Shown here: positions 11,263 through 27,940 of the stretch, one piece after another
Position numbering within the stretch: the stretch's first letter is position 1
Layout: each line of letters begins with the position of its first letter
Assembly (NCBI RefSeq): GCF_042660085.1
Contig: NZ_JBHSTI010000008.1
Location: 1,050,001 to 1,082,000 of the forward strand
DNA: 32,000 nt
Source of the DNA: Longivirga aurantiaca
Lineage (GTDB): Bacteria; Actinomycetota; Actinomycetes; S36-B12; CAIYMF01
Direction: 5' to 3'
Notes under the pieces: model-generated
Database searches by the model: none
Seen by the model: the letters and a program-made list of their open reading frames with translations, nothing else
Told to the model about the DNA's origin: nothing
Position numbers and translations under genes: made by a program

Positions 11263-11370
11263 TGTCGTCGGTCATTCGATGTCCCGCTCACGCGGGCGCT
11301 GAATGACCACCCTCCGGTCAGCAATGTCCCGGAAACGGTCAATGTGACATTGCGACCATCAGGTCGGTAA

Positions 11371-11410
11371 GTGGGAGGCCTCCGCGAAGGAGGCCTCCCA
11401 CTTGCTTTCG
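11371..11410 (+). terminator. Rho-independent terminator (presumably nrdJ)
   Basis: Perfect 13-bp stem GTGGGAGGCCTCC-GCGAA-GGAGGCCTCCCAC, followed by TTGCTTTCG. Confidence 0.7.
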
Positions 11411-11489
11411 TGGCTGTCAGACGGCGCGGGGATGATCACTGGGAGCGGATCCTGGATAGCCTGGCCGCGACGGTGACAAGGGGGTCGAG

Positions 11490-14400
11490 GTGGACGACGG
11501 GACGCTTCCGGGCGCTTCGCAGGCAGAGGCGATTCTTCGGACCCGTCTGGAGGACATCACGCCTGGAGCCCGTATCGATGGAGTGACCGGGAGGGGCTCC
11601 GTCGAGGTCGTGTCGATCCGCTGGCACGGCTCGAACTTCATCACGCTGACCTACCGCGACGACCATGGTGCGACGAACCAGCAGGTCCTCGGCCGCGACC
11701 ATGAACCCGGCCTCCGGCTGGCGTCCTCGGGACCCAGTCACGCCTTCGACGGAGATGCCGACTCGTGGAGGTTGGCCGCGGAAGCTCTCCGCATCCGGTA
11801 CGCCGCTTTGTTCGACCCCATGCTGGCTGTCGTCACGAGCGACCTGGAGCCGCTGCCGCACCAGCTTCGGGCTGTCTACGGCGAGCTGCTCCCGAGGACG
11901 CCCCTTCGGTTCCTGCTCGCTGACGACCCCGGAGCAGGCAAGACGATCATGGCCGGGCTCTACATCAAGGAACTGATCCTCCGAGGGGATCTCGCTCGCT
12001 GCTTGATCGTGGCGCCGGGGTCGCTCGTTGAGCAGTGGCAGGACGAGCTGTACGAGAAGTTCGGCCTGCGCTTCGAGCTCCTCACCCGGTCGCTCATCGA
12101 CGAGGCCGTCGAGCGCAGCCCGTTCGATCAGCACCCCCTGCTGATCGCACGGATGGACCAGCTCTCCCGGAGCGACGACCTCGTCGCCCAGCTGGAACGC
12201 AGCGACTGGGACCTTGTCGTCGTCGATGAGGCGCACCGCATGTCGGCGCACTACTTCGGCCAGGAACTGAAGACGACCAAGCGATACCAGCTCGGGCTCG
12301 TGCTCGGTCGGGTCACCCGCCACCTGCTGCTGATGACCGCCACCCCGCACGCCGGCAAGCAGGAGGACTTCCAGCTCTTCCTCGCGCTGCTCGACGGAGA
12401 TCGGTTCGAGGGCCGCTTCCGCGACGGCGTCCACACGGTGGAGCCGGGCGACCTCATGCGCCGCATGGTCAAGGAGGAGCTCCTCACCATGGACGGCAAG
12501 CCGCTGTTCCCTGAGCGCCGCGCTTACACCGTCCCGTATGACCTCTCCGACTCCGAGAAGGACCTGTACGAAGCCGTCACCCAGTACGTGCGCGAGGAGA
12601 TGAACCGAGCGGAACGCCTCAAGGCCGAAGGTGAGGGTCGCCGCGGCAACCAGGTCGGCTTCGCACTCACGGTTCTGCAGCGCCGCCTTGCCTCGAGCCC
12701 CGAGGCGATCTTGCGCAGCCTCGAGCGCCGCAAGGCACGTCTCGAGGGCCGCCGACGCGAGATGGACGCGGCCGCCGCGCACGCCGAGGAGATCTCGCTG
12801 CGGCAACGCCTCGACGAGATCCTGGGCAGGGGCACCGACGAAGATCTAGAAGCCCGCCTCGATGACCTCCCGGGTGAGGAGCTCGAGGAGCTGGAGGAGA
12901 ACGTCGTCGACGCCGCGACGGCCGCCCGCACGGTCGCCGAGCTCGATGTTGAGATCGCCATGCTCGACGACCTTGTCGAGTTGGCTCGCCGAGTCCGCTG
13001 GTCCGGCACGGACAAGAAGTGGTCGGAGCTGCGCACCATCCTCACGGACTCAGACTTGACCGTCGACGAGTCCGGGAACCTGCGCAAGATCATCATCTTC
13101 ACCGAGCATCGCGACACACTGAACTACCTGGTCGACCAGATCCGCAGCCTGGTGGGGCGCGAGGAGGCTGTCCTCGCGATTCACGGAGGGATCCGCCGCG
13201 AAGAACGCCGCAAGGTTCAAGAGCTCTTCACGCAGGACAAGGACACCCTCGTCCTGGTGGCGACCGACGCGGCTGGCGAGGGACTGAACCTTCAGCGAGC
13301 GCACCTGATGGTCAACTATGACCTGCCGTGGAACCCCAACCGAATCGAGCAGCGCTTCGGCCGCATCCACCGCATCGGACAGACCGAGGTGTGCCACCTC
13401 TGGAACCTCTTGGCGGCCAACACACGTGAGGGCGAAGTGTTCCTCCGCCTCCTGGAGAAGATCGAGGAGCAGCGCCAGGCCTACCAGGGGCGCGTGTTCG
13501 ATGTCCTAGGCGACGCTTTCGAGGATCGGCCGTTGCGCCAGCTGCTCATCGACGCGATCCGCTACGGCGACCAGCCGGAGGTCCGAGAGCGCCTCAACAT
13601 GGTGATCGACGAGACAGTGAGCAAGGGCCTGGACGAGCTCATCGCCGAACGTGCGCTCTATCGCGAGGTGTTGGCCGAGGCGGACATCGAGGAGCTTCGA
13701 CGTCGCGTCGAGGAGGCGCAGGCCAGGCGCCTGCAGCCCCACTACGTCCAGGCCTTCTTCCTCGCCGCGTTCACGCGATTGGGAGGACGAATCACCGCCC
13801 GCGAGACCGGGCGCTACGAGATCACGCACGTGCCGGCTGACATCCGTGATCGGGATCGGCAGATTGGCGTAGGCGCTCCTGTCCTCAACCGGTACGAGCG
13901 TGTTGCTTTCGACAAGCCCTACGTCCGGCTGGGCCACGCCCCCCGCGCGGACCTCATCGCACCCGGACACCCCCTTGTCGACGCCGTCGTCGACCTCACC
14001 ATCGAACGCAACAACAACGCTCTCAAGCAAGGCGCTGTGCTTGTCGATCGTGACGACCCGGCTGAGTCGCCGCGTCTGCTCGTGGCCATGACGCAGGAGA
14101 TCTCGGATGGCCATGTGCCGGCGCGGGTGGTGTCCAAGCAGTTTCAGTTCGTCGAGATCGCGCCCGACGGAGATGCACGATCCGCTGGTCCTGCTCCGTA
14201 CCTCGACTACGAGGAGCTTCGCGAGGAAGAGAGGCCGGCGGTCGCGGCGGCACTGGCCGACGCATGGCTCGCTGCGGGCGTCGAGGACGTCGCGGTGTCG
14301 TGGGCGATCGAACACGCACTCCCCGAGCACCAACGCGATGTAGAGGCTCGCGTCCTGCCACTGGTCGCACGCACCCGCGACCATGTGCGTCACCGACTGA

Positions 14401-15059
14401 CGAGCGAGATCAACTACTGGGACACCCGCCACGCCGAGCTCCTCGACCAAGAGGCGGCCGGCCGCCAGCTTCGAATCCGGCCTGAGACCGCCTATCGTCG
14501 CGCGCGCGACCTTGAGGGGCGCTTGTCGCGTCGTCTGGTTGACCTAGATGCCGATGGGCACTTGGCCGTGGCCCCTCCGTACGTTGTAGGTGGTGCGCTC
14601 GTCTTGCCCCAGGGCTTGATCGATCGTGCGCTCGGCCGTCGATCCGCCCCCGAAGCCACCTACGCCAGAGACACCGCTGTGATCGAACGTCGGGCGGTCG
14701 ACGCCGTTCTCGCCGCTGAACGAACGCTGGGGCGACGTCCCGAGGAGATGGCACACAACCACCCAGGGTGGGACATCCGGTCTCAGGCGGCTGACGGCAG
14801 TGTGGTGAAGATCGAGGTCAAAGGCCGCATCGCTGGCGCGGATGATTTCACCATCACGATGAACGAAGTGCTCACCGCCAAGAACCTCGGCGACGACTAC
14901 CGCCTGGCCCTCGTCGAAGTGAGTCCTGACGGCCCCATCCATGACCGCCTGAGATACCTGACCCGTCCCTTCGAAACGACCGGTACCGACGATTTCAGTG
15001 TCAAGCGCTACGTGATGAACTGGGACGCCCGATGGTCGACGGGAACCGCACCACACTGA
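11490..15059 (+). CDS. SNF2-family helicase with C-terminal DUF3883-type PD-(D/E)xK nuclease-like domain
   Basis: ORF 11490..15059. GTG start with AAGGGGG 5 nt upstream. Helicase motifs: I LLADDPGAGKTIMAG, II VVVDEAH, III LLMTATPHAGK, V ATDAAGEGLNLQ, VI NRIEQRFGRIHRIGQ. The C-terminus (HPGWDIRS...VVKIEVKGR) has a D...ExK pattern typical of DUF3883. Confidence 0.9.
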   Translation: MDDGTLPGASQAEAILRTRLEDITPGARIDGVTGRGSVEVVSIRWHGSNFITLTYRDDHGATNQQVLGRDHEPGLRLASSGPSHAFDGDADSWRLAAEALRIRYAALFDPMLAVVTSDLEPLPHQLRAVYGELLPRTPLRFLLADDPGAGKTIMAGLYIKELILRGDLARCLIVAPGSLVEQWQDELYEKFGLRFELLTRSLIDEAVERSPFDQHPLLIARMDQLSRSDDLVAQLERSDWDLVVVDEAHRMSAHYFGQELKTTKRYQLGLVLGRVTRHLLLMTATPHAGKQEDFQLFLALLDGDRFEGRFRDGVHTVEPGDLMRRMVKEELLTMDGKPLFPERRAYTVPYDLSDSEKDLYEAVTQYVREEMNRAERLKAEGEGRRGNQVGFALTVLQRRLASSPEAILRSLERRKARLEGRRREMDAAAAHAEEISLRQRLDEILGRGTDEDLEARLDDLPGEELEELEENVVDAATAARTVAELDVEIAMLDDLVELARRVRWSGTDKKWSELRTILTDSDLTVDESGNLRKIIIFTEHRDTLNYLVDQIRSLVGREEAVLAIHGGIRREERRKVQELFTQDKDTLVLVATDAAGEGLNLQRAHLMVNYDLPWNPNRIEQRFGRIHRIGQTEVCHLWNLLAANTREGEVFLRLLEKIEEQRQAYQGRVFDVLGDAFEDRPLRQLLIDAIRYGDQPEVRERLNMVIDETVSKGLDELIAERALYREVLAEADIEELRRRVEEAQARRLQPHYVQAFFLAAFTRLGGRITARETGRYEITHVPADIRDRDRQIGVGAPVLNRYERVAFDKPYVRLGHAPRADLIAPGHPLVDAVVDLTIERNNNALKQGAVLVDRDDPAESPRLLVAMTQEISDGHVPARVVSKQFQFVEIAPDGDARSAGPAPYLDYEELREEERPAVAAALADAWLAAGVEDVAVSWAIEHALPEHQRDVEARVLPLVARTRDHVRHRLTSEINYWDTRHAELLDQEAAGRQLRIRPETAYRRARDLEGRLSRRLVDLDADGHLAVAPPYVVGGALVLPQGLIDRALGRRSAPEATYARDTAVIERRAVDAVLAAERTLGRRPEEMAHNHPGWDIRSQAADGSVVKIEVKGRIAGADDFTITMNEVLTAKNLGDDYRLALVEVSPDGPIHDRLRYLTRPFETTGTDDFSVKRYVMNWDARWSTGTAPH

Positions 15060-15075
15060 TGCAGAGAGAAGTCAC

Positions 15076-17880
15076 GTGAGCACCGTCAAGCGCAAGCTGA
15101 TCGAGGTCGCCCTGCCGCTGGAGGCCATCAACCGCGAGTCCGCGCGCGAGAAGTCCATCCGTCACGGTCACCCTTCCACCCTTCATCTCTGGTGGGCCCG
15201 ACGACCGCTTGCCGCTGCGCGGGCCGTACTATTCGCGCAACTCGTTGATGACCCCTCTGCGCGGCCGGCTGAGTTCCCCACAGACGAAGCTCAGGCCGTG
15301 GAGCGCAAACGCCTCTTCGGCATCATCGAGAGACTTGTTGACTGGGACAACATCAACGACGAATCGCTGTTCCGAGAGGCACGTCAGGAAATCCTCAGGT
15401 CAACTGGCGGTCGTCCGCCGACGATCCTTGACCCCTTCGCCGGCGGAGGTTCCATTCCCCTGGAAGCTCAGCGACTTGGCTTGGAGGCGCATGCCTCGGA
15501 TCTCAATCCAGTCGCGGTGCTGATCAACCGAGCGCTTATCGAGATCCCGCCGTTGTGGTCGGGTGTGCCCCCAGTCTTCCCTGGGGCGTCCGACTCCCGC
15601 ATGGGCGCGTGGACTGGCACTACCGGTCTCGCGGAGGATGTCCGGCGGTACGGCCAATGGATGCGCGACGAAGCGGAACGCCGGATCGGGCACCTGTACC
15701 CGAAGGCGAAACTCGGCGACGGCACTGAGGCGAATGTCATCGCCTGGATTTGGGCACGGACGATCACCTGCCCGAACCCTGCCTGCGGCATCGAGATGCC
15801 GCTGGCGCGGTCCTGGTGGCTGGGTAAGAAGAAGGGCAAGGAAGCCTTCGTCGTACCCGAGGTCGTGACGAAGAGCGATGGAACGCGCCGCGTCGAGTTC
15901 GCTATTGGCCATGACGTGCATGCTGGCCCCTCGGGCGCTGCCGATGGGACGGTGACGCGCACCGGTGCCGTCTGCGTGGCATGCGGCACCGGCGTGCCAC
16001 TCTCATACGTGCGCGACGAAGGCAAGTCTGGTCGAATCGGCACTCGACTCATGGCCATAGTTGCCGAGGGTGATCGTCGTCGCCTGTATCTCCCACCTAC
16101 GCCCGAGCAGGAATCGGCAGCGGACGTGGCCGTACCTGCGGATGTACCTGAAACGGACTTGCCCGATGCTGCCTTGGGGTTTCGCGTTCAGGGCTACGGG
16201 ATGCGACGCCACGTGGATCTGTTCACAGCGCGTCAGCTCACAGCGATGACGACTTTCAGCGACTTGATCGGCGAGGCCCGCGAGCGTGTGCTTGCTGACG
16301 CCACCGCACACGGCATGACACAAGATGATCGGAGCCTTGAGGTCGGCGGAACGGGTTCGGCCGCCTACGCCGACAGTGTTGCTGTGTACCTGGCATTGGT
16401 CCTTGGGAAGGTAGCCGATATTGGCAACGCACTTGTGAGCTGGAAGCCGAGCATGGATCAGGCGATTCATCTCTTCACCCGCCAAGCCATCCCGATGTTG
16501 TGGGACTTCTCCGAGACCCCGGTCCTCAGTGATCGACATGCCGGCGGATACACAGTGTCGTTGGGGAACGTCGCGAAGGCGATTCCTAACGTGCCGCCCG
16601 GGTCGCATCGCGGGCATGTCACCCAAGCAGATGCCGCGAAGCGTTCGTACGAATCGGTTCTAGTCGCTACCGACCCGCCCTACTACGACAACGTGGGGTA
16701 CGCGGACCTCTCCGACTTCTTCTATGTTTGGCTCCGGCGTTCCCTGCTCGGGATTCTTCCCACCACCCTTGCCACAATGCTGACTCCGAAGGCGGACGAG
16801 CTTGTGGCTGAACCCTTTCGGCATGGTGGTGCTGCCTCTGCAGAGCGCTTCTTCGAGGAGGGGTTCCGGGACGTCTTCGCTCATATTCGCAAGGACACGC
16901 CCAACGACCTCCCAATCACAGTGTTCTACGCGTTCAAGCAGTCGGACACGGATGTTGAGGGCGTCGCTAGCACGGGATGGCAGACGCTGCTCGAGGGAAT
17001 GCTCAGTTCCGGTTGGGAGGTCACTGCGACATGGCCGGTGCGAACGGAACTGGGTAACCGAATGCGGAGTATTGATTCCAATGCGTTGGCGTCCTCCATT
17101 GTTCTGGCATGTCGGCCGAGGTCGGCTTCCGCTGAGGCGGTTACACGACGTGCCTTCATCGCCAGGCTGAAGGAGGAACTCCCTGCTTCGTTGCGCGTGC
17201 TCCAGCAGGGCAGCGTGGCACCGGTGGATCTGGCGCAGGCTGCCATCGGGCCCGGCATGGCTGTGTTCTCGCGGTACACCAAGGTCGTTGAAGCGGATGG
17301 CTCCGACATGTCCGTCCGCACGGCACTTGCCCTGATCAACCAGGTTCTCGACGAAGTGCTGACGGAGCAGGAAGGTGACTTCGATGCCGACACCCGATTC
17401 TGCGTGAAGTGGTTCACCCAGTTCGGGTGGAATGAGGGCACCTCGGGCGAGGCGGATGTTCTCGCTCGCGCCACGAACACGTCCGTCGAGGGACTTGCCC
17501 GAGGCGGCGTCTTCAAGGCTGTTGCGGGGAAGGCACGGCTGTTGGGCCCAACCGACCTGGCTGAGGACTGGGACCCGATGGCGGATGATCGGGTCAGCGA
17601 TTGGGAGGTTGCGATTCGGCTGGCTAAGGCGCTTAGCGAGCAGGGTATGGAACGGGCGGCCGCACTTATGGCAACTGCTGGTGCGCGACGTGATCTGGAT
17701 ACGGTCAAGGAGCTCGCCTACCTGCTCTTCAGCCTGTCGGAGAAGAAGGGCTGGACGCAGACAGCCGTCCTGTTCAACGGCCTCGGAACCGCCTGGAACG
17801 ACGTGGAGAATGCCGCGCGAACCGCTGCCGGCCGGCAGGTTGTGGCCCAAGATGAGTTGACGTTTGACGACGAGAACTGA
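15076..17880 (+). CDS. DUF1156-type DNA methyltransferase (DPPY amino-methyltransferase, N6-A or N4-C)
   Basis: ORF 15076..17880. GTG start 16 nt after the upstream stop codon. The N-terminus KLIEVALPLEAINRESAREKSIRHGHPSTLHLWWARRPLAAARAV is characteristic of DUF1156. SAM motif I is DPFAGGGSIPLEA (aa 119-). Motif IV is TDPPYYDNVGY (aa 532-). Confidence 0.9.
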   Translation: MSTVKRKLIEVALPLEAINRESAREKSIRHGHPSTLHLWWARRPLAAARAVLFAQLVDDPSARPAEFPTDEAQAVERKRLFGIIERLVDWDNINDESLFREARQEILRSTGGRPPTILDPFAGGGSIPLEAQRLGLEAHASDLNPVAVLINRALIEIPPLWSGVPPVFPGASDSRMGAWTGTTGLAEDVRRYGQWMRDEAERRIGHLYPKAKLGDGTEANVIAWIWARTITCPNPACGIEMPLARSWWLGKKKGKEAFVVPEVVTKSDGTRRVEFAIGHDVHAGPSGAADGTVTRTGAVCVACGTGVPLSYVRDEGKSGRIGTRLMAIVAEGDRRRLYLPPTPEQESAADVAVPADVPETDLPDAALGFRVQGYGMRRHVDLFTARQLTAMTTFSDLIGEARERVLADATAHGMTQDDRSLEVGGTGSAAYADSVAVYLALVLGKVADIGNALVSWKPSMDQAIHLFTRQAIPMLWDFSETPVLSDRHAGGYTVSLGNVAKAIPNVPPGSHRGHVTQADAAKRSYESVLVATDPPYYDNVGYADLSDFFYVWLRRSLLGILPTTLATMLTPKADELVAEPFRHGGAASAERFFEEGFRDVFAHIRKDTPNDLPITVFYAFKQSDTDVEGVASTGWQTLLEGMLSSGWEVTATWPVRTELGNRMRSIDSNALASSIVLACRPRSASAEAVTRRAFIARLKEELPASLRVLQQGSVAPVDLAQAAIGPGMAVFSRYTKVVEADGSDMSVRTALALINQVLDEVLTEQEGDFDADTRFCVKWFTQFGWNEGTSGEADVLARATNTSVEGLARGGVFKAVAGKARLLGPTDLAEDWDPMADDRVSDWEVAIRLAKALSEQGMERAAALMATAGARRDLDTVKELAYLLFSLSEKKGWTQTAVLFNGLGTAWNDVENAARTAAGRQVVAQDELTFDDEN

Positions 17881-17891
17881 CGGGACAGACC

Positions 17892-21233: not shown

Positions 21234-21238
21234 GCGCG

Positions 21239-23416
21239 TTGCCCGAGAACGCGGTAACGCGCGAGGAGCTCAGGTCGCTCCTGGCGCGCGCACAGATGCT
21301 TGCCGCTCAGGCGGAGTCGATCACGTCCACCAGTGCGGGGTCCTCTCGCGAAGTCGCGGACGGCTATCGGGCTGTCGTCGCACGCATGGTGGCTCGTGAG
21401 CTCGGCTCGATACCTGTGGCGAGACTCAGGGATGTCACGGAGGGTCGGCTGCGTCTGGGGCCGATCGAGTCGCGCTACAAGACGGTCGCTCAGCTGCAGA
21501 ATGTGTCCGCCTACACCCTCATGCAACTTCCTGGCGTCGGCGAGGCTACTGCTAGTCAGGTTGTAGCGGCCGTCCACACGGTGGCTCGCACGGTGGAGGA
21601 CGGGTTCCGGCTGCGCATCGACCTGGACGCGAGCGACCCAGTCACGACCGATCTGTTGCGTTCGACGTGGCGCTACGACTCGGTGACGCGGGCGGTGGCC
21701 CCGGTTAGGGAGCCGGCCGGGCGGATGAGCAACGAACTCGAACGTCTCGCCGTCGAGGCGAAGCCGGCTGGCTACGGCGCACTGCGCAGCTTGTTCACCA
21801 GCCGTGCGAAGAAGGACGGCGCCCGCGCCGCGGTGGAGCGCATCGAGCAGTGGATGCGGTGGAGCGACAGCCCTGCTAACGCAGCCGCGTGGACAGGAGC
21901 CATTGCCGCGATCCAGGCTCCGACACCTTCGGCTGCCGACGCTTGGAGAGCCTTCGAGACGCGATCGCCGGAGTTCTACGGCGCCTTGGGTGAGGTGGTC
22001 GATCTCCGGCTCGACGTCGGCTCGGCACAGGGCTTCTTGCCAGCGGAGATCGTCGCGAAGGTGGAGGAGCAGCTGCTCGATACGTCGATGCTCAAGGTGA
22101 GTCTGCGCGGCTACCAGTCGTTCGGCGCGCGCTTCGCGCTGGTCCAGAGGAAGGTGATCATCGGCGACGAGATGGGTCTCGGCAAGACGATCCAGGCGCT
22201 GGCCGTCATGACGCATCTTGCTTCGTCCGGCAAGGCGCACTTCCTCGTCGTGTGCCCTGCCAGCGTCCTGGTGAACTGGATCCGCGAGATCCGTACCCGA
22301 TCCGATCTTCAGGCCTACCAGTTGCATGGCCCGGACACGGCGCGTCAGCAGGGCCTGTGGACGCAGCGAGGTGGCGTGGCGGTCACCACGTTCGAGGGCC
22401 TGCGGCGGCTGTCGCTGCGTGAAGTTCCCCTGCTGGTCGTCGATGAGGCCCACTTCGTGAAGAACCCGACGGCGCAGCGCTCCCAGCTGGTCGCCTCCTG
22501 GATCGCGGGCGCAGAGCGAACGCTGTTCCTGACCGGTACTCCGATGGAGAACCGGGTCGAGGAGTTCCAGAACCTCGTCCGCTACCTGCAACCTCAAGTC
22601 GCGAACAGGGTGAATCCGTCGCACGGGCTGGCGGGAGCTGACGCCTTCCGCCGGGCGGTCGCGCCGGTCTACTTGCGCCGCAATCAGGACGACGTGCTCA
22701 TGGAGCTCCCCGACCTGATGTCGGTGGAGGAATGGGAGTCCTTCGGGCCGTCGGAAGCTGCTTCCTACCGGGATGCCGTCATGGGTGGCAACTTCATGGC
22801 GATGCGCCGAGCTGCCTTCGACGCGGTGCCGGTCACCGCGGCGACCAAGATGGCACGGCTGCTCGAGCTGTGCGACGAAGCGGCCGCGAACGGGCACAAG
22901 GTCCTCGTCTTCTCCTTCTTCCGCGACGTGCTGGACAAGGTGGCCGAGTCACTCGGGTCGCGAGCGCACGGACCATTGACGGGGAGCGTGCCGGCGGCGA
23001 AGCGCCAGGCGGTTGTCGATGGTTTCACCGCGGCCTCATCGGATGCGGTCCTTGTCGCGCAGATCCAGGCCGGTGGAGTCGGGCTCAACGTCCAGGCAGC
23101 GAACATCGTGATTCTGTGCGAGCCGCAAGTGAAGCCCTCGGCGGAGGCGCAAGCCATCGCGCGCGCGCACCGCATGGGTCAGGTCAGGAAGGTCCAGGTG
23201 CACCGTCTCCTTGTCGAGAACAGCGTCGACCAGCGAATGCTGGAGATCCTCGGAGCGAAGCAGGCGTTGTTCGACGAGTACGCGGCCAAGAGCGATCTGG
23301 CATCCGCCACCCCCGACGCGGTCGACATCTCCGAGACCGAGCTCGCGAAGACCATCGTCGCGGCAGAGCAGGAGCGCCTTGCTCGCGAGCTCATGGAGCA
23401 GCAGGCTTTGCAGTGA
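21239..23416 (+). CDS. Second SNF2-family helicase with helix-hairpin-helix-containing N-terminal region
   Basis: ORF 21239..23416. TTG start 5 nt after the upstream stop codon. Motifs: I IGDEMGLGKTIQAL, II LVVDEAHFVKN, III LFLTGTPMENR, V AGGVGLNVQ, VI AQAIARAHRMGQ. The N-terminal ~290 aa include LMQLPGVGEATASQVVAAV (HhH-like). Confidence 0.9.
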   Translation: MPENAVTREELRSLLARAQMLAAQAESITSTSAGSSREVADGYRAVVARMVARELGSIPVARLRDVTEGRLRLGPIESRYKTVAQLQNVSAYTLMQLPGVGEATASQVVAAVHTVARTVEDGFRLRIDLDASDPVTTDLLRSTWRYDSVTRAVAPVREPAGRMSNELERLAVEAKPAGYGALRSLFTSRAKKDGARAAVERIEQWMRWSDSPANAAAWTGAIAAIQAPTPSAADAWRAFETRSPEFYGALGEVVDLRLDVGSAQGFLPAEIVAKVEEQLLDTSMLKVSLRGYQSFGARFALVQRKVIIGDEMGLGKTIQALAVMTHLASSGKAHFLVVCPASVLVNWIREIRTRSDLQAYQLHGPDTARQQGLWTQRGGVAVTTFEGLRRLSLREVPLLVVDEAHFVKNPTAQRSQLVASWIAGAERTLFLTGTPMENRVEEFQNLVRYLQPQVANRVNPSHGLAGADAFRRAVAPVYLRRNQDDVLMELPDLMSVEEWESFGPSEAASYRDAVMGGNFMAMRRAAFDAVPVTAATKMARLLELCDEAAANGHKVLVFSFFRDVLDKVAESLGSRAHGPLTGSVPAAKRQAVVDGFTAASSDAVLVAQIQAGGVGLNVQAANIVILCEPQVKPSAEAQAIARAHRMGQVRKVQVHRLLVENSVDQRMLEILGAKQALFDEYAAKSDLASATPDAVDISETELAKTIVAAEQERLARELMEQQALQ

Positions 23417-23425
23417 CCCGCCGCA

Positions 23426-23848
23426 CTAGGGCGTCAAGTCTGCGTTGGCGGCTTTGGTCAGCCTGATGGGTCGTCCGCCCGCGACGGTGACTAGGCCTCG
23501 CCGGACCAGCGCCGGAAGAACCAGTTCACGATCAGGGCCGGACAGTGAACGGCGCACGTCCTCTCCGAGTTGTATCCGCCGCAGAAGCCGAGCCTGAGCC
23601 GTGGTGAGCTCCGAGGCTTCCGGCTCGTCCGCAGTGCCCGCGATCGTCACCTCAGCAAGCAGGTCCCGGGGGTGAACTCCCAACGCTTCGCACATGTGGG
23701 CGAGGTGTCGCAGCGTCAGGTTTCCGTCATCCCCGCCAGCTTCGATGCGCCGGATGACCTGGAAGTTGACGCCTGTGAAGTACGCGAGCCGGCGCTGTGA
23801 GAGTCCCCGCTCGGTGCGCAGCCGGGCCACCAGTTCCGCGTTGATCAT
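23426..23848 (-). CDS. XRE-family helix-turn-helix protein
   Basis: ORF 23426..23848(-). N-terminus: LVARLRTERGLSQRRLAYFTGVNFQVIRRIEAG (HTH_3 pattern). Its start overlaps the upstream stop codon (ATGA). Confidence 0.8.
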   Translation of the reverse strand: MINAELVARLRTERGLSQRRLAYFTGVNFQVIRRIEAGGDDGNLTLRHLAHMCEALGVHPRDLLAEVTIAGTADEPEASELTTAQARLLRRIQLGEDVRRSLSGPDRELVLPALVRRGLVTVAGGRPIRLTKAANADLTP

Positions 23849-25011
23849 GGGAGCGCCGTGGCCGTGATGCCGAGGCGTGAAAGCCAGCGGCGGGGATGGA
23901 CGTGCCGATCAGCCCTGCGGCCGTGGACGCAGATCCCGAAGTCGAGGGACGCTTGGTTGAGGGCTGTGGACACGGCTCGGTCGCTGAGTGGGAGCAACTT
24001 GTCCTTGCCCTCGGCCCCCGATCGTCGGCGCAGGTCGGTCTGGGCCTTGGCGGCGCGCGCGGTGTTGTCGAGAAGGGGCACCGTGCGATGGGCGCCCAGC
24101 CGAAGGCCGTCGGGAGCCACATCGTCAAGGGTGAGGGCGAGCATCTGGAGGATCCCTACCTGCTGGGCGGCCAGGGCTACGACGATGGCGCGGTGAGGTT
24201 GCCGGTAGCCGACGAGGTCCTCGTCGATCGTGATCGGGTCGACCAGCTGGCGTTCGCTGCTGCACAGCAGTACCGGCGTGTCGGTCTTCAAGTAGATGTC
24301 GTGGTGCCAGGCGGCAAGCTGGAGCGCGCGGATACCGATCACGAGTGCGTCGTCGTGTGGCGCGGTTCCGGTGACCCATTCGACGAGGTTGGCGAGGACG
24401 TCGATGGTGGCGCCGTCTCGGTCTAGCGTGTCGTCGCAGTGCGCCCAGGTATGGCCGAAGTGCGCTTCGACCGCTCGATAGGTCTCTGAGTCTGTGCTCG
24501 CCTCGAGGGTTGTACGGAATCGGTCGAACGGGATACGCGATGCGTCATCGAGCCCGAAGCCCAGGCGTACGCCCGTGGCAGGTTGGCGCATGCTGGGTTG
24601 CGGGACGTCGGAGTAGCGCATGGGGTGCGCCTTCGCTCGCGCGAGGATCCGCTCGAAGTTGTCCGAACGGGGTGGCCGGTGGAGGAGCCAGAGCGGTAGG
24701 GACGCGGCCTTGGCGAGGGCGACGAGATGCCCGAGGGTGAGCCTGGTGAGGTTCTGTGCATCCAGTGCCACGAGGGCAGAGATGTCGTAGGCGTCGAGCC
24801 AGGCCAGCGCGAGGGCGACGTCCTGGTTCTCGTTGCGGCCCTTCCCCGCGACGTCCCGGCGCTTGCCCAGCGCGGACAGCATGTCGCCAGCGATGACGGC
24901 GGACCGTTTGAGGTTGGGTCGGATGTCGAACCACAACGCTGCCCCCGGGCTGGGGAGCCCGAGGGGCAGCGCGGTGGCGACGCCGGTCACGTCGACATGG
25001 TGGGTAGCCAC
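23845..25011 (-). CDS. Hypothetical transposition-accessory protein (N-terminal degenerate TniB/AAA+-like region)
   Basis: ORF 23845..25011(-), GTG start. It occupies the position taken by TniQ/TnsD in this kind of operon. MLSALGKRRDV...ALALAWLDAYDISALVALDAQNL resembles the TniB-family ILxALG...hhhhD(E)xHNL segment, but I see no P-loop. Confidence 0.7.
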   Translation of the reverse strand: MATHHVDVTGVATALPLGLPSPGAALWFDIRPNLKRSAVIAGDMLSALGKRRDVAGKGRNENQDVALALAWLDAYDISALVALDAQNLTRLTLGHLVALAKAASLPLWLLHRPPRSDNFERILARAKAHPMRYSDVPQPSMRQPATGVRLGFGLDDASRIPFDRFRTTLEASTDSETYRAVEAHFGHTWAHCDDTLDRDGATIDVLANLVEWVTGTAPHDDALVIGIRALQLAAWHHDIYLKTDTPVLLCSSERQLVDPITIDEDLVGYRQPHRAIVVALAAQQVGILQMLALTLDDVAPDGLRLGAHRTVPLLDNTARAAKAQTDLRRRSGAEGKDKLLPLSDRAVSTALNQASLDFGICVHGRRADRHVHPRRWLSRLGITATALP

Positions 25012-25012
25012 G

Positions 25013-25792
25013 TCACTTCTTCGGCTTGGGCCTGGGGTATGGGGGCATCAGCGCGGTGGCGGCCCTGGCCAGCGACAGGTCGATCTCAGGAGGAGTGGCG
25101 TCGGGGTCGAGGGCGTGGGTGAGTTCGAGGGTGTGCTGGAGGAAGATCCCCCAGCGGCGGAGGAGCCCGAAGCAGTAGTCCTGATCGATGAGCTTGAGCA
25201 GCTTCGGATCGCTGATGCCGAAGCTGGCGTGCATTCCACGCAGTGCGCGGATCAGGTCATCACCCTTGAGGGCCTGTACGTCGACGGTGGCGATGATGTC
25301 GCCGCGAAGTCGGGCGCTGGTGGTGCTGGCCCGGTCTAGGTCGTCGGAACCGAGCAGGACCAGGGACCAGTTGGCTCCGGGTCGTGCGTGCAGGTACTGC
25401 AGCTGGCTTGCGGCCTTGGTGGTCAGTTCCTGAGCCTGATCGATGACGAGGATGCTCGACTCGTGCCCGAGGGCGTCCACGAGGTCATCCTGCATGTCGC
25501 GGAGTTCGTACTCGTCGCGGTCCCCGAGAACCGCGTCGATGAGGACGGCCATGAGCTTGTTCTCCGACGGGGCGGGCGGCATCGCGACGAAGCTGTATGG
25601 GTGCTGCTGGTCGCTCAGCGCGGCCGCCAGGGCGATGCGCTTGCCGGCGCCCCGTGGCCCGGCGACGACCATGGTGCCGCCGTGGCGAGCGGTGAACCCG
25701 AGGCGTGCTCGGATCTCGGTTGTGGCCGGATGCGGTACGACCGTCGCCACGCCTCGAAGACCGACGGGGAGGTACCGGTCGAGGGCGTTCAT
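25013..25792 (-). CDS. TniB/TnsC/MuB-like AAA+ transposition ATPase
   Basis: C-terminal 259 codons of ORF 25013..26848(-). The ATG at 25792 overlaps the transposase stop codon (ATGA). Walker A: VAGPRGAGKR. Walker B-like: SSILVIDQAQEL. Confidence 0.8.
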   Translation of the reverse strand: MNALDRYLPVGLRGVATVVPHPATTEIRARLGFTARHGGTMVVAGPRGAGKRIALAAALSDQQHPYSFVAMPPAPSENKLMAVLIDAVLGDRDEYELRDMQDDLVDALGHESSILVIDQAQELTTKAASQLQYLHARPGANWSLVLLGSDDLDRASTTSARLRGDIIATVDVQALKGDDLIRALRGMHASFGISDPKLLKLIDQDYCFGLLRRWGIFLQHTLELTHALDPDATPPEIDLSLARAATALMPPYPRPKPKK

Positions 25793-27312
25793 ACCAGCAA
25801 GCCCTGTCCGTGCTCGTCGAAGCCGTTGTCGTCGCGGCGGGGCCGGTAGCTGTCGAGGGCGTCGCTCTGCCCGGTGCGAAGGTCGTCGTCGGGGACGTCG
25901 ACCTCGTAGGCGAACTTGCCGCCGGGAAGCTTGCGCTTGTGCAGCTTGCTGGTGTCGGGGTCCTGCTTGTGGATGCGCTTGACGGACGAGACGTTCTTCA
26001 GAGCACGTGCCTGGTCGGCGCGGCGCTGCTTGAGGAAGGCCTCCTGGTCCTCGGGCTGGAGGTGGTCTGATGGGTAGGCGGTTCCGACGTGCTTGCCGTC
26101 GTGGAAGACCTCGATGAAGTCGCGCATGTGGGGCAGGTAGCGGACCTCGACCTGCTTGCCGATGAGGCGGTCGAGCTCGCCGTGCAGGGTGACGTAGTCC
26201 AGGCTCTTCCAGCGCACGCCTTGCACGGAGACGGTGGCTTTGGAGTCGGAGAGCAGGAAGTCGCACCAGAGCTGGTCGGCGGGGACGGTGACCAGGTCCC
26301 GGGGGTCGGCCTGCCACGCCTGCAGCGGGGTCATGCCCAGGGTGCGCACGACGTGCTCGGTGTTGTACCAGTCCAGCCAGGCCGTGACTCGCTCGACGAA
26401 CGCGACCTCGGACAGGGCGTACTGGGCGCGGTGCAGGGTGCCGCGGACGTCGGTGCCGGAGTCGATGTAGCCCGGCAGGGAGGCCAGGCAGTTCCCCTTG
26501 AAGGTCCGCCAGAACCGCTCGCACCTGCCTTTGAGGTTGGGGCTGTACGGGGGGAGCGGTGAGGGTGTGGTACCCAGTCGCAGGCAGGACTCGGTGACCA
26601 GGGTGGAGAGGAAGTCCTTGCCCTGGTCCCACACGATCCGGAACGGGAGCCCACCGACGCGGGTGTGGCCGTCGGCTGCGGTGCGCTCCAGGATGGCGGA
26701 GATGAACGCGACGCGGACCTCCTCCGCCGACGGGGTGCCGAAGGTGATCACCAGGCTGAGCACGTAGCGGGTCGCATGATCGACGACCACGGTGATGTAG
26801 GGCCGTGTTGCCCGCTTGTGCCCGGTGGGGATCACGTAGATGGGGCACTCGGTGTGGTCGGTCTCGTAGGTGTGGCCGCGCTCGCCGGGGTCCCGCTTGA
26901 GGTAGACGCGTCGCGAGCGCGCCTTGCCGTCACCGTGCCGGATGACAGTCATGGCGTGCTGGCCCAGCAGCGAGTTCACCTTGCGCTGAAATGTGGCCAG
27001 GCTGGGCAGGTTCTTGGTTGCCTTGAGGTTGCGGTACGCCTTGGCGAGGTTCCCTGAGCACCGGGCGACCTCGTTGACGACCTCACCGTCCAGCAGCCAC
27101 CCGTCCTTGGCTTCGGTCTGCAGTTCGCGGTCGTGGCGGGCCGCCCTGAGGGCCGCGACGAGCCTTCTGAGGTGCCGGACTGAGTAGCCGCTGGCTTCGG
27201 CAGCGACGCTGAACAGGGTGCCGTCCAGGTCGACGCCGGCGGCCTCGAGGGCGAATAGTTCGGCGATGACCCTGTCTCGACCATCTCGGTGCAGGGCGGG
27301 CTTGTTGCTCAT
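25789..27312 (-). CDS. DDE transposase, TniA/TnsB/MuA-like (rve integrase core + Mu-transposase C-terminal domain)
   Basis: ORF 25789..27312(-). The ATG has GAAGGA upstream. N-terminal HTH (GYSVRHLRRLV). DDE triad context: YETDHTECPIYV, IVWDQGKDFLS, YSPNLKGRCERFWRTFK. A beta-barrel-like C-terminal region follows (ATVSVQGVRWKSLDYV). Confidence 0.9.
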   Translation of the reverse strand: MSNKPALHRDGRDRVIAELFALEAAGVDLDGTLFSVAAEASGYSVRHLRRLVAALRAARHDRELQTEAKDGWLLDGEVVNEVARCSGNLAKAYRNLKATKNLPSLATFQRKVNSLLGQHAMTVIRHGDGKARSRRVYLKRDPGERGHTYETDHTECPIYVIPTGHKRATRPYITVVVDHATRYVLSLVITFGTPSAEEVRVAFISAILERTAADGHTRVGGLPFRIVWDQGKDFLSTLVTESCLRLGTTPSPLPPYSPNLKGRCERFWRTFKGNCLASLPGYIDSGTDVRGTLHRAQYALSEVAFVERVTAWLDWYNTEHVVRTLGMTPLQAWQADPRDLVTVPADQLWCDFLLSDSKATVSVQGVRWKSLDYVTLHGELDRLIGKQVEVRYLPHMRDFIEVFHDGKHVGTAYPSDHLQPEDQEAFLKQRRADQARALKNVSSVKRIHKQDPDTSKLHKRKLPGGKFAYEVDVPDDDLRTGQSDALDSYRPRRDDNGFDEHGQGLLV

Positions 27313-27466
27313 GGGTCTGGTCCTTCGCTATGCGGGTTGCGGCGGGCAGCGTGGGGGAGCGACTGCTCGCAGCTGACGTGACTGATCGTCGGCGGATCGC
27401 GGCCGGTGGCTTCAGCCCGTCGCCGAGCGGTGTGCGGGCGTTGATGTTCCGTTGGGGCCGGCTGCG

Positions 27467-27940
27467 TCAGGCGGACTTGCTGTGTGCGATGACGCAGGAC
27501 AGCTCAGGTGCGCGGGGGACCAGAACTCGCATCCGAACCACGTCCGGTCCGTGGACGGCTACGGCGCGCGCCCGGAGATTCGCCGCGGCTGCGGCCACCT
27601 GCGCATCGGTGGGCCGGGTGTCGGCCAGCACCGTGTCGGCGATGACCGCTCCGGTGCCGTCGGCCCAGATCAGGTCGGTGGCCTCGGGGTTCAGGCACAG
27701 GTCACGGCCGACGAAGCGCCAGGGCGCGGCTGGTGCGTACAGCCGGAAGTAGCCAGCGACTGCTCCGGCCACGGCCTGCGTGGCCACCTGGGCCGGGATG
27801 CTCTGGCGGGATCCGATGCGCCGCCGGGTCGCCGCCATGACGACGGTGACGTCGGGCGTACTGGTGTGGCTAGCGAGATCGGCGATCACCTCGCGGCAGA
27901 CCTCGGACCTCGTTCGGTGGGGTGCGGGTGCTCTGCTCAC
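27467..27940 (-). CDS. Hypothetical protein, degenerate paralogue of the 28001..28573 PD-(D/E)xK-like protein
   Basis: ORF 27467..27940(-), GTG start, good GC3. It aligns with the neighbouring gene: APAAPWRFVGRDLCLNPEATDLIWADGTGAVIADTV versus APAPPWTFVGAEVTRPGVRFDVLWVHAGTGELMVDEIKTG. The E-x-K is replaced by D-T-V. Confidence 0.7.
   Translation of the reverse strand: MSRAPAPHRTRSEVCREVIADLASHTSTPDVTVVMAATRRRIGSRQSIPAQVATQAVAGAVAGYFRLYAPAAPWRFVGRDLCLNPEATDLIWADGTGAVIADTVLADTRPTDAQVAAAAANLRARAVAVHGPDVVRMRVLVPRAPELSCVIAHSKSA

What the first reader, a model, noticed from the sequence alone, without database searches (positions are those of the whole stretch)
11402..27466. Defence operon may be cargo of a Tn7/Tn5053-like transposon
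The transposition operon (27312 down to 23426) is convergent with the defence operon. Only 9 nt (23417-23425, CCCGCCGCA) separate the two stop codons, with no terminator hairpin and no room for a transposon end. In Tn7-like elements the transposition genes read inward from one end and cargo lies beyond their 3' side. By that logic the 12-kb operon sits inside the element, and the other end would fall near 11.3-11.5 kb, just after the nrdJ terminator. I could not find terminal inverted repeats or a target-site duplication, so this remains an architectural inference. The element may also be decayed.
Basis: inference. Interest (0 to 1): 0.7.

Follow-up and report, generated by a model that had tools for sequence, protein, structure and literature searches.

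The report
Defence operon inside nrdJ-targeting transposon
The 12-kb Hma anti-phage operon sits between one end of a Tn7-like transposon, which butts directly against the stop codon of the essential gene nrdJ, and the transposon's own transposition genes, so it is best read as transposon cargo; the far end of the element could not be pinned down.

Summary
Only 9 nt (23417-23425) separate the convergent stop codons, and no terminator lies there. The window is from Longivirga aurantiaca.

Comparison with relatives supports the cargo reading. In five independent relatives, with TniA 30-76% identical, the same transposition operon lies downstream of nrdJ and converges on it. Immediately after the nrdJ stop codon comes a 5'-TGT terminus, four arrayed ~17-21-bp repeats (window 11263-11357) and then an element-borne hairpin.

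The slot between this end and the operon varies between relatives. It holds Hma (window and two relatives), GmrSD, nothing or 0.8 kb. At loci where the nrdJ side was not reached, the same position holds RAMA, BREX or an R-M-like set. About 70 of 80 other actinobacterial nrdJ loci have a plain terminator there.

The operon has seven genes:
- a small ORF;
- a Cas4-like PD-(D/E)XK nuclease and its paralog;
- a DDE transposase with an invariant triad;
- an AAA+ TniB with non-canonical Walker motifs;
- a 388-aa protein that is not a recognisable TniQ;
- an HTH protein.

The left end is at 11263, not 11.3-11.5 kb. The tni-side end lies at 29.02-29.25 kb (palindrome or conserved hairpin) but is unresolved. 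No inverted repeat or target duplication was found. Cargo and tni modules are mosaic.

This is a new variant of a known kind.

The parts
11215..11262 (+). 3' end of nrdJ, encoding SCYVCEGCGSTSGCS followed by TGA. This is the presumed attachment site.
   Evidence: The C-terminal peptide is near-invariant in the ~80 Actinomycetota nrdJ loci. In all 9 occupied loci the element starts at the first base after the stop codon.
11263..11357 (+). nrdJ-proximal (cargo-side) transposon end. It has a 5'-TGTCGTC terminus and four arrayed repeats: GGTCATTCGATGTCCCG at 11270-11286, a degenerate copy at about 11293-11311, GGTCAGCAATGTCCCG at 11316-11331, and the palindromic GGTCAATGTGACATTGCGACC at 11337-11357.
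   Evidence: The motif GGTCAN(1-4)ATGTSMC occurs twice here against 0.03 expected. The same four-site layout at offsets of about 9/34/55/76 is seen in L001, L100 and L095, although their spacers have diverged. The array is absent from nrdJ loci that lack the element.
11369..11403 (+). Element-borne hairpin just inside the end. It is probably a replacement terminator for nrdJ and an insulator for the cargo.
   Evidence: Folding energy is -20.2 kcal/mol with z = -6.8. An equivalent hairpin follows the array in L100, L001, L095 and L041.
11490..15059 (+). hmaA, an SNF2/DEAD helicase with a NOV_C domain. Cargo.
   Evidence: PADLOC HmaA at 1501 bits; supporting Pfam hits. It is 95% identical to the copy in the L008/L100 element.
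15076..17880 (+). hmaB, a DUF1156 DNA methyltransferase. Cargo.
   Evidence: PADLOC HmaB at 1118 bits; DUF1156 at 8e-31. It is only 61-63% identical to the L008 and L093 copies.
17892..21233 (+). hmaC, a DUF499 ATPase with an N-terminal HEPN_Swt1 domain. Cargo.
   Evidence: PADLOC HmaC at 901 bits; HEPN_Swt1 at 6e-36. It is 93% identical to the L008 and L093 copies.
21239..23416 (+). Fourth cargo gene: an SNF2 helicase with a helix-hairpin-helix motif, DrmD/DpdE-like.
   Evidence: PADLOC DrmD PDLC02627 at 3.7e-164. It is present next to the HTH gene in L008 and L093.
23417..23425 (.). The 9-nt spacer between the convergent stop codons.
   Evidence: Read directly from the sequence. No terminator-like site is found here.
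23426..23848 (-). Xre-type HTH protein of 140 aa, the last gene of the transposition operon. It is a candidate DNA-binding partner for target choice, or a regulator.
   Evidence: HTH_3 at 3e-8. It is conserved in this position in all relatives.
23845..25011 (-). p388, a 388-aa protein in the TniQ/TnsD position. It belongs to a family of unknown function.
   Evidence: No Pfam, NCBIfam, PADLOC, PHROG or PDB sequence hit. It has 46 homologs, all annotated hypothetical. The AF2 model has pLDDT 89.8. Foldseek gives only weak hits to TnsC/MuB and Cre, and none to TniQ.
25013..25792 (-). tniB/tnsC-like AAA+ protein. The start coordinate is approximate.
   Evidence: AAA_22 at 1e-8; phrog_296 'DNA transposition protein' at 3e-9. 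Walker A is GPRGAGKR and Walker B is VIDQ, both non-canonical.
25789..27312 (-). tniA/tnsB-like DDE transposase of 507 aa.
   Evidence: rve and Mu-transpos_C domains; phrog_310 at 1e-51. The best solved relatives are ShCAST TnsB at 3e-12 and Tn7 TnsB at 3e-4. D152, D229 and E265 are invariant in 36 homologs.
27467..27940 (-). p157, a paralog of p190. The nuclease motif is lost in this sub-lineage (ADTV where relatives have DExK).
   Evidence: 34% identical to p190. The motif IDE[IL]KTG is kept in L101 and L103; L095 has IDELSTA, without the lysine. The L101 and L105 homologs have weak PDDEXK_1 hits.
28001..28573 (-). p190, a Cas4-like PD-(D/E)XK nuclease in the TnsA position.
   Evidence: E98, D107, D121-E122-x-K124 are invariant. 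PF12705 is hit by 2 of 8 homologs, best E 7e-4. The model (pLDDT 69) has the Cas4-family protein ACE1 (9iac) as its best fold match, E 1.3e-3, probability 0.99.
28580..28912 (-). Small ORF of 110 aa, the first conserved gene of the operon. Function unknown.
   Evidence: Found as an ORF. A homologous gene sits in the same position in L001, L008, L089, L093 and L095; L101 and L103 carry a small ORF at that position whose homology was not tested. No family hit.
29024..29062 (-). Palindrome GGCCGTTGTCC-N19-GGACGACT upstream of the operon. It is candidate (b) for the tni-side end sites, or an operator.
   Evidence: Continuous conservation among relatives starts here. L008-versus-L093 identity drops from about 93% to about 65% exactly here. 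Palindromes containing AATGTCC occupy the same position in L095 and L103.
29209..29250 (-). Conserved 42-nt hairpin (stem 29211-29248, loop CTTCCCCA). It is candidate (a) for the tni-side boundary.
   Evidence: 90-92% identical in five lineages, while the sequence outside it differs in each. Folding energy is -15 to -24 kcal/mol with z = -3 to -6. There are 16 predicted pairs and 1 compensatory change. No Rfam family matches.

Best explanation
Window 11263 to about 29.06-29.25 kb (about 17.8-18.0 kb) is one site-specific Tn7-like transposon, integrated exactly after the stop codon of the class II ribonucleotide reductase gene nrdJ. The four-gene Hma anti-phage operon is its cargo. It lies between the nrdJ-proximal end and the 3' end of the transposition operon.

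**Shown**
- The gene content.
- The invariant junction (stop codon, then TGT).
- The four-repeat end, whose sequence co-varies with the TniA lineage.
- The element-borne hairpin.
- Cargo-free and differently loaded relatives at the same site.
- An intact DDE triad in the transposase.

**Inferred**
- The DDE transposase TniA binds the arrayed repeats and carries out strand transfer.
- The PD-(D/E)XK nuclease p190, with its degenerate paralog p157, plays the TnsA role of cutting the other strand. That would give cut-and-paste movement.
- TniB is the TnsC-like adaptor.
- p388 and the HTH protein replace TniQ/TnsD. They would read the near-invariant nrdJ 3' coding sequence and direct insertion just past the stop codon, so nrdJ stays intact.
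- The hairpin at 11369-11403 terminates nrdJ transcription.
- Cargo is exchanged between related elements by recombination. This explains the mosaic identities.
For: - **Site and orientation recur.** nrdR-nrdJ, then cargo, then HTH-p388-TniB-TniA recurs in L001-L005 (TniA 75% identical, cargo GmrSD), L095 (47%, 0.8 kb of cargo) and L041 (30%, about 0.5 kb with no cargo gene).
- **The Hma-bearing L008 element also starts at the nrdJ stop codon**.
- **The junction is exact.** All 9 occupied loci read stop codon then TGT[CG]/TGAC. About 70 other nrdJ loci have unrelated sequence after the stop, and the ones I read carry terminator hairpins.
- **The end has the same layout across relatives.** Four repeats sit at the same offsets in the window, L001, L100 and L095, with non-conserved spacers. 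L041 has a different 22-bp repeat three times (0 expected). L012, L021 and L051 have other arrays.
- **The same slot holds varied cargo.** Hma, GmrSD, RAMA, BREX, an R-M-like set, and type I R-M with Mrr.
- **No room for an end at 23.4 kb.** The gap between cargo and the HTH gene is 9-60 nt in all loci.
- **The transposase is under selection.** The DDE triad is invariant in 36 homologs of 41-100% identity. The best solved relatives are TnsB proteins.
- **A nuclease sits in the TnsA position**.
- **Base composition.** GC is 0.61-0.68 across the cargo against 0.70-0.74 in the left flank.
- **Precedents.** Tn7-like elements carry defence cargo (PMC8649781). nrdB and nrdD serve as att sites, and a short TniQ with a separate downstream HTH gene has been described (bioRxiv 10.1101/2025.07.27.667033).
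Against: - No inverted copy of the four-site array, no terminal inverted repeat and no 5-bp duplication of GCTGA was found on the tni side of any locus. The second end is therefore only bracketed (29024-29250).
- No closely related empty site was available. The nearest genome-collection nrdJ is 81% identical at the protein level. The window's own genome is not indexed.
- TniB lacks the Walker A Ser/Thr and the Walker B Glu in this sub-lineage. These positions are not conserved, so canonical ATP control may be lost.
- p388 is not a detectable TniQ, and p190 is not a TnsA-family protein.
- Modules have different histories. HmaA and HmaC are 95% and 93% identical between the window and L008, but TniA is 76% and p157 is 53%. 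L008 versus L093 shows a replaced core. Hma may therefore have entered by recombination rather than arriving with this tni module.
- TniA divergence roughly tracks NrdJ divergence, so long vertical residence cannot be excluded.
Confidence: 0.75

Rival explanations
1. The region is a defence-island hotspot downstream of nrdJ. A domesticated or immobile tni module is a long-term resident there. Defence cassettes such as Hma are swapped in and out by homologous recombination between conserved anchors: nrdJ plus the repeat array on one side, and the tni operon or the hairpin on the other. On this view Hma was never moved by this transposon.
For: - Mosaic identities.
- The L008-versus-L093 identity profile: about 93% in both flanks and Hma, about 65% from the palindrome into p388.
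- Degenerate Walker motifs in TniB.
- No second end and no target duplication.
- TniA identity falls as NrdJ identity falls: 96/75, 77/47 and 76/30 %.
- Defence genes also lie on the other side of the operon in every locus.
Against: - The DDE triad is invariant and all seven ORFs are intact across lineages down to 41% identity.
- Presence and absence vary within a single genus. In Nocardioides, L041 is occupied while L039, L071, L072, L074 and L080 are empty.
- A distant family member lies at a non-nrdJ locus (L105).
- The array's sequence co-varies with the transposase lineage.
- This rival still places Hma physically inside the element. It overlaps with the best explanation rather than excluding it.
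Confidence: 0.2
2. A small transposon confined to about 23.4-29.3 kb inserted next to an unrelated, independently acquired Hma operon. The repeats after nrdJ would belong to nrdJ or to Hma, not to the transposon.
For: - No inverted repeats link 11.3 kb and 29 kb.
- Hma systems are widespread without tni genes: more than 8000 HmaA homologs.
Against: - Only 9 nt separate Hma from the HTH gene, and no array lies there.
- The array after nrdJ is present with non-Hma cargo (L001, GmrSD) and with no cargo (L041, L095). It is absent from about 70 nrdJ loci that lack tni genes.
- The array therefore travels with the tni genes, not with nrdJ or Hma.
Confidence: 0.03
3. The element is much larger than 18 kb. 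On this view the true second end lies beyond the hairpin, possibly beyond 32000. McrBC and the small ORFs at 29.3-32 kb would then also be cargo, and the tni operon would be internal.
For: - Defence genes flank the operon on the far side in every relative.
- In L095 the inserted block, relative to the nrdJ-DUF2332 neighbourhood seen in Micromonospora and Salinispora, runs 3.6 kb past the operon. A single array-like site, AGTCAACCCATGTCCCG, lies 45 nt from DUF2332.
- A weak array-like site lies at 30346-30365 in the window.
Against: - Those single sites are no better than chance (62-63 of 200 shuffles score as well).
- Sequence outside the hairpin is unrelated between lineages.
- L001 has a TniA pseudogene fragment just outside the hairpin. 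This suggests an older, separate element there rather than one large element.
Confidence: 0.12

Closest known systems
Tn7 (attTn7 downstream of glmS; TnsABC+D)
   Same: - Site-specific insertion just past the 3' end of an essential, highly conserved gene, leaving that gene intact.
- The same gene order: nuclease, DDE transposase, AAA+ regulator, then target-selector position.
- A 5'-TGT terminus and arrayed transposase-site-like repeats at the end.
- Cargo lies beyond the 3' side of the operon.
   Different: - The target is nrdJ, and insertion is flush with the stop codon.
- The end next to the target gene is the cargo-side end, not the transposase-gene side.
- The nuclease is Cas4-like and duplicated, not TnsA family.
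- No TniQ/TnsD domain is detectable.
- TniB has non-canonical Walker motifs.
- The second end and the 5-bp duplication were not found.
Tn7-like elements that use ribonucleotide reductase genes as att sites: nrdB in Acinetobacter, nrdD in Firmicutes and archaea (bioRxiv 10.1101/2025.07.27.667033)
   Same: - A ribonucleotide reductase gene serves as a safe attachment site.
- One archaeal clade has a short TniQ (under 400 aa) followed by a separate HTH gene. This is the same layout as p388 plus the HTH gene here.
   Different: - A different RNR class (class II, nrdJ) and a different host phylum (Actinomycetota).
- p388 has no TniQ signature.
- nrdJ is not named as an att site in any paper I searched or opened.
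Actinobacteria-dominated clade of Tn7-like transposons with defence cargo (Benler et al. 2021, PMC8649781)
   Same: - The host phylum.
- Defence systems as the dominant cargo.
- Ends defined by arrays of transposase-binding sites.
- None of that clade has been characterised experimentally.
   Different: I could not test whether this family belongs to that set. That survey delineated elements by arrays at both ends, and only one array is recognisable here.
Type V-K CAST / Tn5053 branch (TnsA-less TnsB-TnsC-TniQ elements)
   Same: - TniA's best solved relative is ShCAST TnsB (E 3e-12).
- The only PADLOC hit is the V-K TnsB model.
- The four-site array at the cargo-side end recalls the four repeats that, as I recall, Tn402 carries at its i-end (not checked here).
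   Different: - No Cas12k or guide RNA.
- No TniR resolvase or res site.
- A nuclease gene pair is present.
- The target is a chromosomal gene, not a plasmid res site.
Tn6022/AbaR islands at comM (PMC11014353)
   Same: A Tn7-like element that builds a variable island at one att site. It uses a non-standard extra transposition protein and diversifies its cargo by recombination.
   Different: - A different att site and different proteins.
- No XerC-like recombinase or dif-like site was shown here.
- The Cre-like resemblance of the p388 C-terminus is weak, and there is no conserved tyrosine at the C-terminal end, where the catalytic residue would be expected.

Membership tests
Tn7-like transposons | TnsB-type DDE transposase (rve core plus Mu-transposase C-terminal domain) with an intact catalytic triad | tested here: met
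   PF00665, PF13683 and PF09299 are hit. TnsB structures are the best PDB sequence matches. D152, D229 and E265 are invariant in 36 homologs.
Tn7-like transposons | Adjacent TnsC/TniB AAA+ regulator | tested here: met
   AAA_22 and phrog_296 are hit, and the gene overlaps the tniA stop. Caveat: Walker A reads GK-R and Walker B reads D-Q/H/G, whereas the distant relative L041 has the canonical motifs.
Tn7-like transposons | TniQ/TnsD target selector (PF06527-type zinc-ribbon domain) | tested here: not met
Tn7-like transposons | TnsA endonuclease (not present in all branches) | tested here: inconclusive
   No TnsA-family hit. However, p190 is a PD-(D/E)XK nuclease in the TnsA position: it has the invariant motif, hits PF12705 and has a Cas4-like fold. 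TnsA belongs to the same superfamily.
Tn7-like transposons | Site-specific insertion next to a conserved gene (att site) | tested here: met
   The nrdJ stop codon is followed directly by TGT in the window, L001, L100, L095 and L041, and in four further array-bearing loci.
Tn7-like transposons | Both ends carry arrays of transposase-binding repeats in inverted orientation, with 5'-TGT...ACA-3' termini | tested here: inconclusive
   The cargo-side end fits. On the tni side there is only a palindrome with a TGTCC core and a conserved hairpin, with no matching array.
Tn7-like transposons | 5-bp target-site duplication | tested here: inconclusive
   GCTGA (GCTAA in L001) precedes the left terminus. 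No matching copy was found at either candidate right boundary. No empty site was available for comparison.
Tn5053/Tn402 family | TniR serine resolvase plus a res site; 25-bp terminal inverted repeats; insertion into plasmid or transposon res sites | tested here: not met
   No resolvase lies among the genes from 23.4 to 29.3 kb. No terminal inverted repeats were found. The target is chromosomal nrdJ.
Hma defence system (PADLOC) | HmaA helicase, HmaB methylase and HmaC ATPase in one operon | tested here: met
   All three models match at full length, with E reported as 0 for HmaA and HmaB and 2e-271 for HmaC. There is also an extra SNF2 gene. Anti-phage activity was not tested.

The most novel reading that the evidence does not exclude
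This may be an undescribed lineage of Tn7-related elements in Actinomycetota with the following properties.

- It inserts flush with the stop codon of nrdJ.
- It has replaced TnsA with a duplicated Cas4-like nuclease.
- It has replaced TniQ with a P-loop-less, TnsC-like 388-aa protein plus a separate HTH protein.
- It runs on a TniB that has lost its canonical ATPase motifs.
- Its two ends are asymmetric: a four-site array on one side, and a conserved hairpin or palindrome on the other.
- It acts as a dedicated carrier of anti-phage systems, with cargo cassettes shuffled between resident copies by recombination.
Probability: 0.35. Interest if true: 0.7.

Novelty: new variant of a known kind. 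Interest (0 to 1): 0.55.

Why it matters
- **A mobile context for Hma.** It ties a methylation-linked anti-phage system to a defined mobile vehicle and a predictable chromosomal address.
- **A searchable address.** The position right after nrdJ could be used to mine actinobacterial genomes for new defence systems.
- **A possible third RNR att site.** I found no description of nrdJ as an att site in the papers I searched. If that holds, it joins nrdB and nrdD as ribonucleotide reductase genes independently adopted as Tn7-type att sites.
- **Non-standard parts.** The machinery lacks recognisable TniQ and TnsA and has a non-canonical TniB. If it is active, it would widen the known set of parts for site-specific DNA insertion in high-GC Gram-positive bacteria.

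Tried and rejected
- **Inverted-repeat search over 10.8-28.5 kb.** Only chance-level pairs were found.
- **Searches for inverted copies of the left-end repeat.** I scanned the tni side of six loci with pattern, score-matrix and local-alignment methods. Nothing was consistent. The best hits (window 30346-30365, L095 5646-5662) are no better than shuffles.
- **TGTCGT as a duplicated target.** This hexamer occurs both at the left terminus and in the hairpin loop. I rejected the idea because L100 and L095 have TGTGG at the terminus while the hairpin loop is unchanged.
- **GCAGCTGA at 27369-27376 as a right junction.** I rejected it because conserved operon genes lie beyond it.
- **The hairpin as a known RNA.** No Rfam match.
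- **The hairpin as the displaced native nrdJ terminator.** It is not found after nrdJ in any of 80 loci. The metagenome scan with the loop sequence gave four chance hits. The question stays untestable without a close empty site. L095 has no such hairpin.
- **Exact-protein look-ups of the window's own TniA and NrdR.** Neither is indexed.
- **Plasmid search with TniA.** All hits are 40% identical or less (Streptomyces linear plasmids, and Staphylococcus records). No close plasmid-borne copy exists in that collection.
- **L105 (Geodermatophilus).** This is a family member at a non-nrdJ site. It has no recognisable ends and a truncated tniB.

Full report
**What is in the window**

The window is from Longivirga aurantiaca (Actinomycetota): the TniA protein is 100% identical to an NCBI entry from that species.

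Genes from left to right:
- nrdR (7653-8186).
- nrdJ, which ends at 11262. Its real start is near 8395.
- A plus-strand operon, 11490-23416.
- A minus-strand operon that ends at 23426.
- Small minus-strand ORFs.
- McrC (30689-31909).

The plus-strand operon is an Hma system. It holds HmaA, the DUF1156 methylase HmaB, and HmaC (DUF499 with an N-terminal HEPN_Swt1 domain), all as full-length PADLOC matches. It also carries an extra SNF2 helicase.

**Check of the observation**

The two stop codons are separated by exactly 9 nt, CCCGCCGCA at 23417-23425. No terminator-like site lies there.

The minus-strand genes are:
- TniA: rve plus Mu-transposase C-terminal domain, phrog_310 at 1e-51.
- TniB: AAA_22, phrog_296.
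- A 388-aa ORF with no family hit.
- A 140-aa Xre-type HTH protein.

**Relatives: the same site with different cargo**

TniA has about 40 homologs. I fetched their contigs.

| Locus | TniA identity | Layout |
|---|---|---|
| L001-L005 | 75% | nrdR-nrdJ, then GmrSD plus a 199-aa gene, then HTH-p388-TniB-TniA |
| L095 | 47% | nrdR-nrdJ, then 0.8 kb, then the same operon |
| L041 (Nocardioides MAG) | 30% | nrdJ, then about 0.5 kb with no cargo gene, then an HTH-like gene, a p388-like gene, TniB, TniA and a p190-like gene |
| L008 | 76% | Hma next to the HTH gene |
| L093 | 60% | Hma next to the HTH gene |

A second sample of the L008 element (L100) starts 83 nt inside nrdJ. It reads straight from the stop codon into the element.

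Other members carry RAMA (L089), BREX genes BrxL/PglX (L103, Phycicoccus) or a ResIII-endonuclease/methylase/DUF4391/SNF2 set (L101, Oryzihumus) in the same slot. For those three loci the nrdJ side was not reached.

**The nrdJ-proximal end**

Homology between the window and L001 runs at 91% through nrdR-nrdJ and on to 11353, then stops. Within those 91 nt the spacers are poorly conserved, but four repeats are kept.

Reading from the stop codon, the sequence is TGA|TGTCGTC, followed by:
- GGTCATTCGATGTCCCG
- a degenerate copy
- GGTCAGCAATGTCCCG
- the palindromic GGTCAATGTGACATTGCGACC

The same four-site layout, at offsets of about 9, 34, 55 and 76, is present in L100 and in the much more distant L095: TGA|TGTGGCC GGTCAGGCAATGACACG .. 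GGTCAGCAATGTCC .. GGTCACCAATGTCCCG ... The motif occurs twice in the window against 0.03 expected.

L041 has a different 22-bp repeat, TCTCAGCATTTCGCCACC, three times at the same place, with 0 expected.

Among 80 nrdJ loci from one genome per species:
- The C-terminal peptide SCYVCEGCGSTSGCS is near-invariant.
- Nine occupied loci read stop codon then TGT[CG]/TGAC followed by a repeat array.
- The rest have unrelated sequence after the stop codon, and the ones I read carry ordinary terminator hairpins.
- L051, one of the array-bearing loci, carries type I R-M, Mrr and DUF2397 after the array.

In every relative I read, a strong hairpin follows the array. In the window it lies at 11369-11403, with a folding energy of -20 kcal/mol and z = -6.8.

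The array travels with the tni genes, and its sequence changes with the transposase lineage. It is independent of the cargo. This is what a transposase-binding end should look like. The 12-kb operon therefore lies inside the element.

**The transposition operon is larger than the finding said**

Three more genes upstream of tniA are conserved in the relatives: a 110-aa ORF (28580-28912), p190 (28001-28573) and p157 (27467-27940).

p190 looks like a nuclease:
- It has the invariant residues E98, D107, D121-E122-x-K124.
- Two of eight homologs hit PF12705.
- A moderate-confidence model (pLDDT 69) has the Cas4-family nuclease ACE1 as its best fold match, with E 1.3e-3 and probability 0.99.

p157 is a paralog, 34% identical to p190. 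It has lost the nuclease motif here. L101 and L103 keep it, and L095 keeps it apart from the lysine.

A PD-(D/E)XK nuclease therefore sits where Tn7 has tnsA.

TniA looks functional. D152, D229 and E265 align with the ShCAST TnsB triad and are invariant in 36 homologs.

TniB is unusual. Walker A ends in GK-R. The Walker B acidic pair reads DQ, DH, DG or TE in the main family, whereas L041 has the canonical GKT and DE.

p388 is not a detectable TniQ:
- It has only 46 homologs, all annotated hypothetical.
- It has no conserved cysteines.
- A confident model (pLDDT 89.8) gives only weak Foldseek matches. The N-terminal part resembles TnsC and MuB, and the C-terminal part resembles Cre. There is no TniQ match.

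A Peters-laboratory preprint describes archaeal nrdD-targeting elements with a short TniQ followed by a separate HTH gene. That layout is the same as p388 plus the HTH gene here.

**The tni-side boundary**

This is the weak point of the case. I found no inverted copy of the left-end array and no duplication of GCTGA. Two candidates remain.

(a) A 42-nt hairpin at 29209-29250.
- It is the outermost sequence shared by the window, L001, L008, L089 and L093, at 90-92% identity.
- It has 16 predicted pairs, one compensatory change and an invariant loop and 3' arm.
- Everything outside it differs between lineages.
- L001 has a TniA pseudogene fragment just outside it.
- It matches no Rfam family.

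(b) A palindrome, GG[CT]CGTTGTCC-N19-GGACAACG, at 29024-29062, 110-150 nt upstream of the small ORF.
- Continuous conservation begins here.
- L095 and L103 have AATGTCC-containing palindromes at the same place.
- L008-versus-L093 identity falls from about 93% to about 65% exactly here.

Between the two features lie 170-930 nt of variable sequence. This stretch sometimes contains small genes. I cannot choose between the candidates, and I cannot exclude a more distant end.

**Mosaicism**

Between the window and L008, identities differ by module:

| Gene | Identity |
|---|---|
| HmaA | 95% |
| HmaC | 93% |
| HmaB | 61% |
| SNF2 | 76% |
| TniA | 76% |
| p157 | 53% |

L008 and L093 share flanks and Hma at 85-95% nucleotide identity. 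They differ at about 65% from the palindrome to mid-p388.

Modules are therefore exchanged between resident elements, most simply by homologous recombination. Hma lies within the element's boundaries, but it need not have arrived together with this particular tni module. This supports the milder rival explanation: a resident element acting as a recombination scaffold.

Three observations argue against full immobility:
- The intact, conserved catalytic residues.
- Presence and absence of the element within Nocardioides.
- A distant member at a non-nrdJ site (L105).

**Comparison with what is known**

- Tn7-like transposons with defence cargo are well documented. An Actinobacteria-dominated clade is known but uncharacterised (PMC8649781).
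- The ribonucleotide reductase genes nrdB and nrdD are reported att sites.
- nrdJ was not mentioned in any paper I searched or opened.
- Membership in the Tn7 family is met for TnsB, TnsC, site specificity and one end. It is not met for TniQ. It is inconclusive for TnsA, the second end and the duplication.
- Tn5053 membership fails: there is no resolvase, no inverted repeats and no res target.

**Verdict**

This is a new variant of a known kind. It is moderately interesting for its att site, its substitute nuclease and selector proteins, and its role as a defence-system carrier.

Noticed in passing
window 30689-31909 (-) and on to 32000: McrC (PF10117, 3.7e-44) lies at the right edge of the window; McrB is presumably just beyond it. 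This would be a second defence system on the far side of the transposition operon.
   Followed up: partly
window 29311-30640 (-): Three small minus-strand ORFs (186, 128 and 129 aa) lie between McrC and the hairpin and have no family hits. The 186-aa one has a 59%-identical homolog in L001 (5319-5627), where it sits 2.3 kb further from the hairpin.
   Followed up: partly
window 17892-21233 and 21239-23416: This Hma variant has a HEPN_Swt1 domain fused to the N-terminus of HmaC. It also carries a fourth gene, an SNF2 helicase with a helix-hairpin-helix motif (best PADLOC models DrmD and DpdE).
   Followed up: partly
window 15076-17880 versus L008 and L093: The methylase HmaB is only 61-63% identical between elements whose HmaA and HmaC are 93-95% identical. 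This looks like swapping of the specificity part.
   Followed up: no
window 25013-25792; alignment A11: TniB has Walker A GPRGAGKR and Walker B VIDQ. The catalytic positions vary among relatives (DH, DG, TE), whereas the distant L041 has canonical GKT and DE.
   Followed up: partly
L001 7125-7715: A fragment of a second TniA-like gene (HMM E 1e-11) lies just outside the conserved hairpin, in the same orientation as the intact tniA. It is probably a relic of an older element.
   Followed up: partly
L005 end, L100 start, L012 and L021 ends: Several metagenome contigs break exactly at the junction between nrdJ and the transposon end. This would fit strain-level heterogeneity at that point.
   Followed up: no
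L105 4300-14300 (Geodermatophilus sp. CPCC 205506): A distant family member (p388 42% identical) sits between housekeeping genes with no nrdJ nearby. It carries ThiF-like and DUF4379/HA genes, and its tniB appears truncated.
   Followed up: partly
L095 5600-8280: A DUF2332 gene is the immediate downstream neighbour of nrdJ in Micromonospora and Salinispora. In L095 it lies 9.1 kb away, beyond the element and an EcsC/DUF6994 gene pair.
   Followed up: partly
window 8155-8395: The longest nrdJ ORF (GTG at 8155) overlaps nrdR by 32 nt. By comparison with the 955-aa homolog in L001, the real start is near 8395.
   Followed up: no
window 1-32000: GC content is 0.70-0.74 left of 8 kb. It is 0.61-0.68 across nrdJ, the cargo and the tni genes, and about 0.70 from 27 to 30.5 kb.
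   Followed up: no
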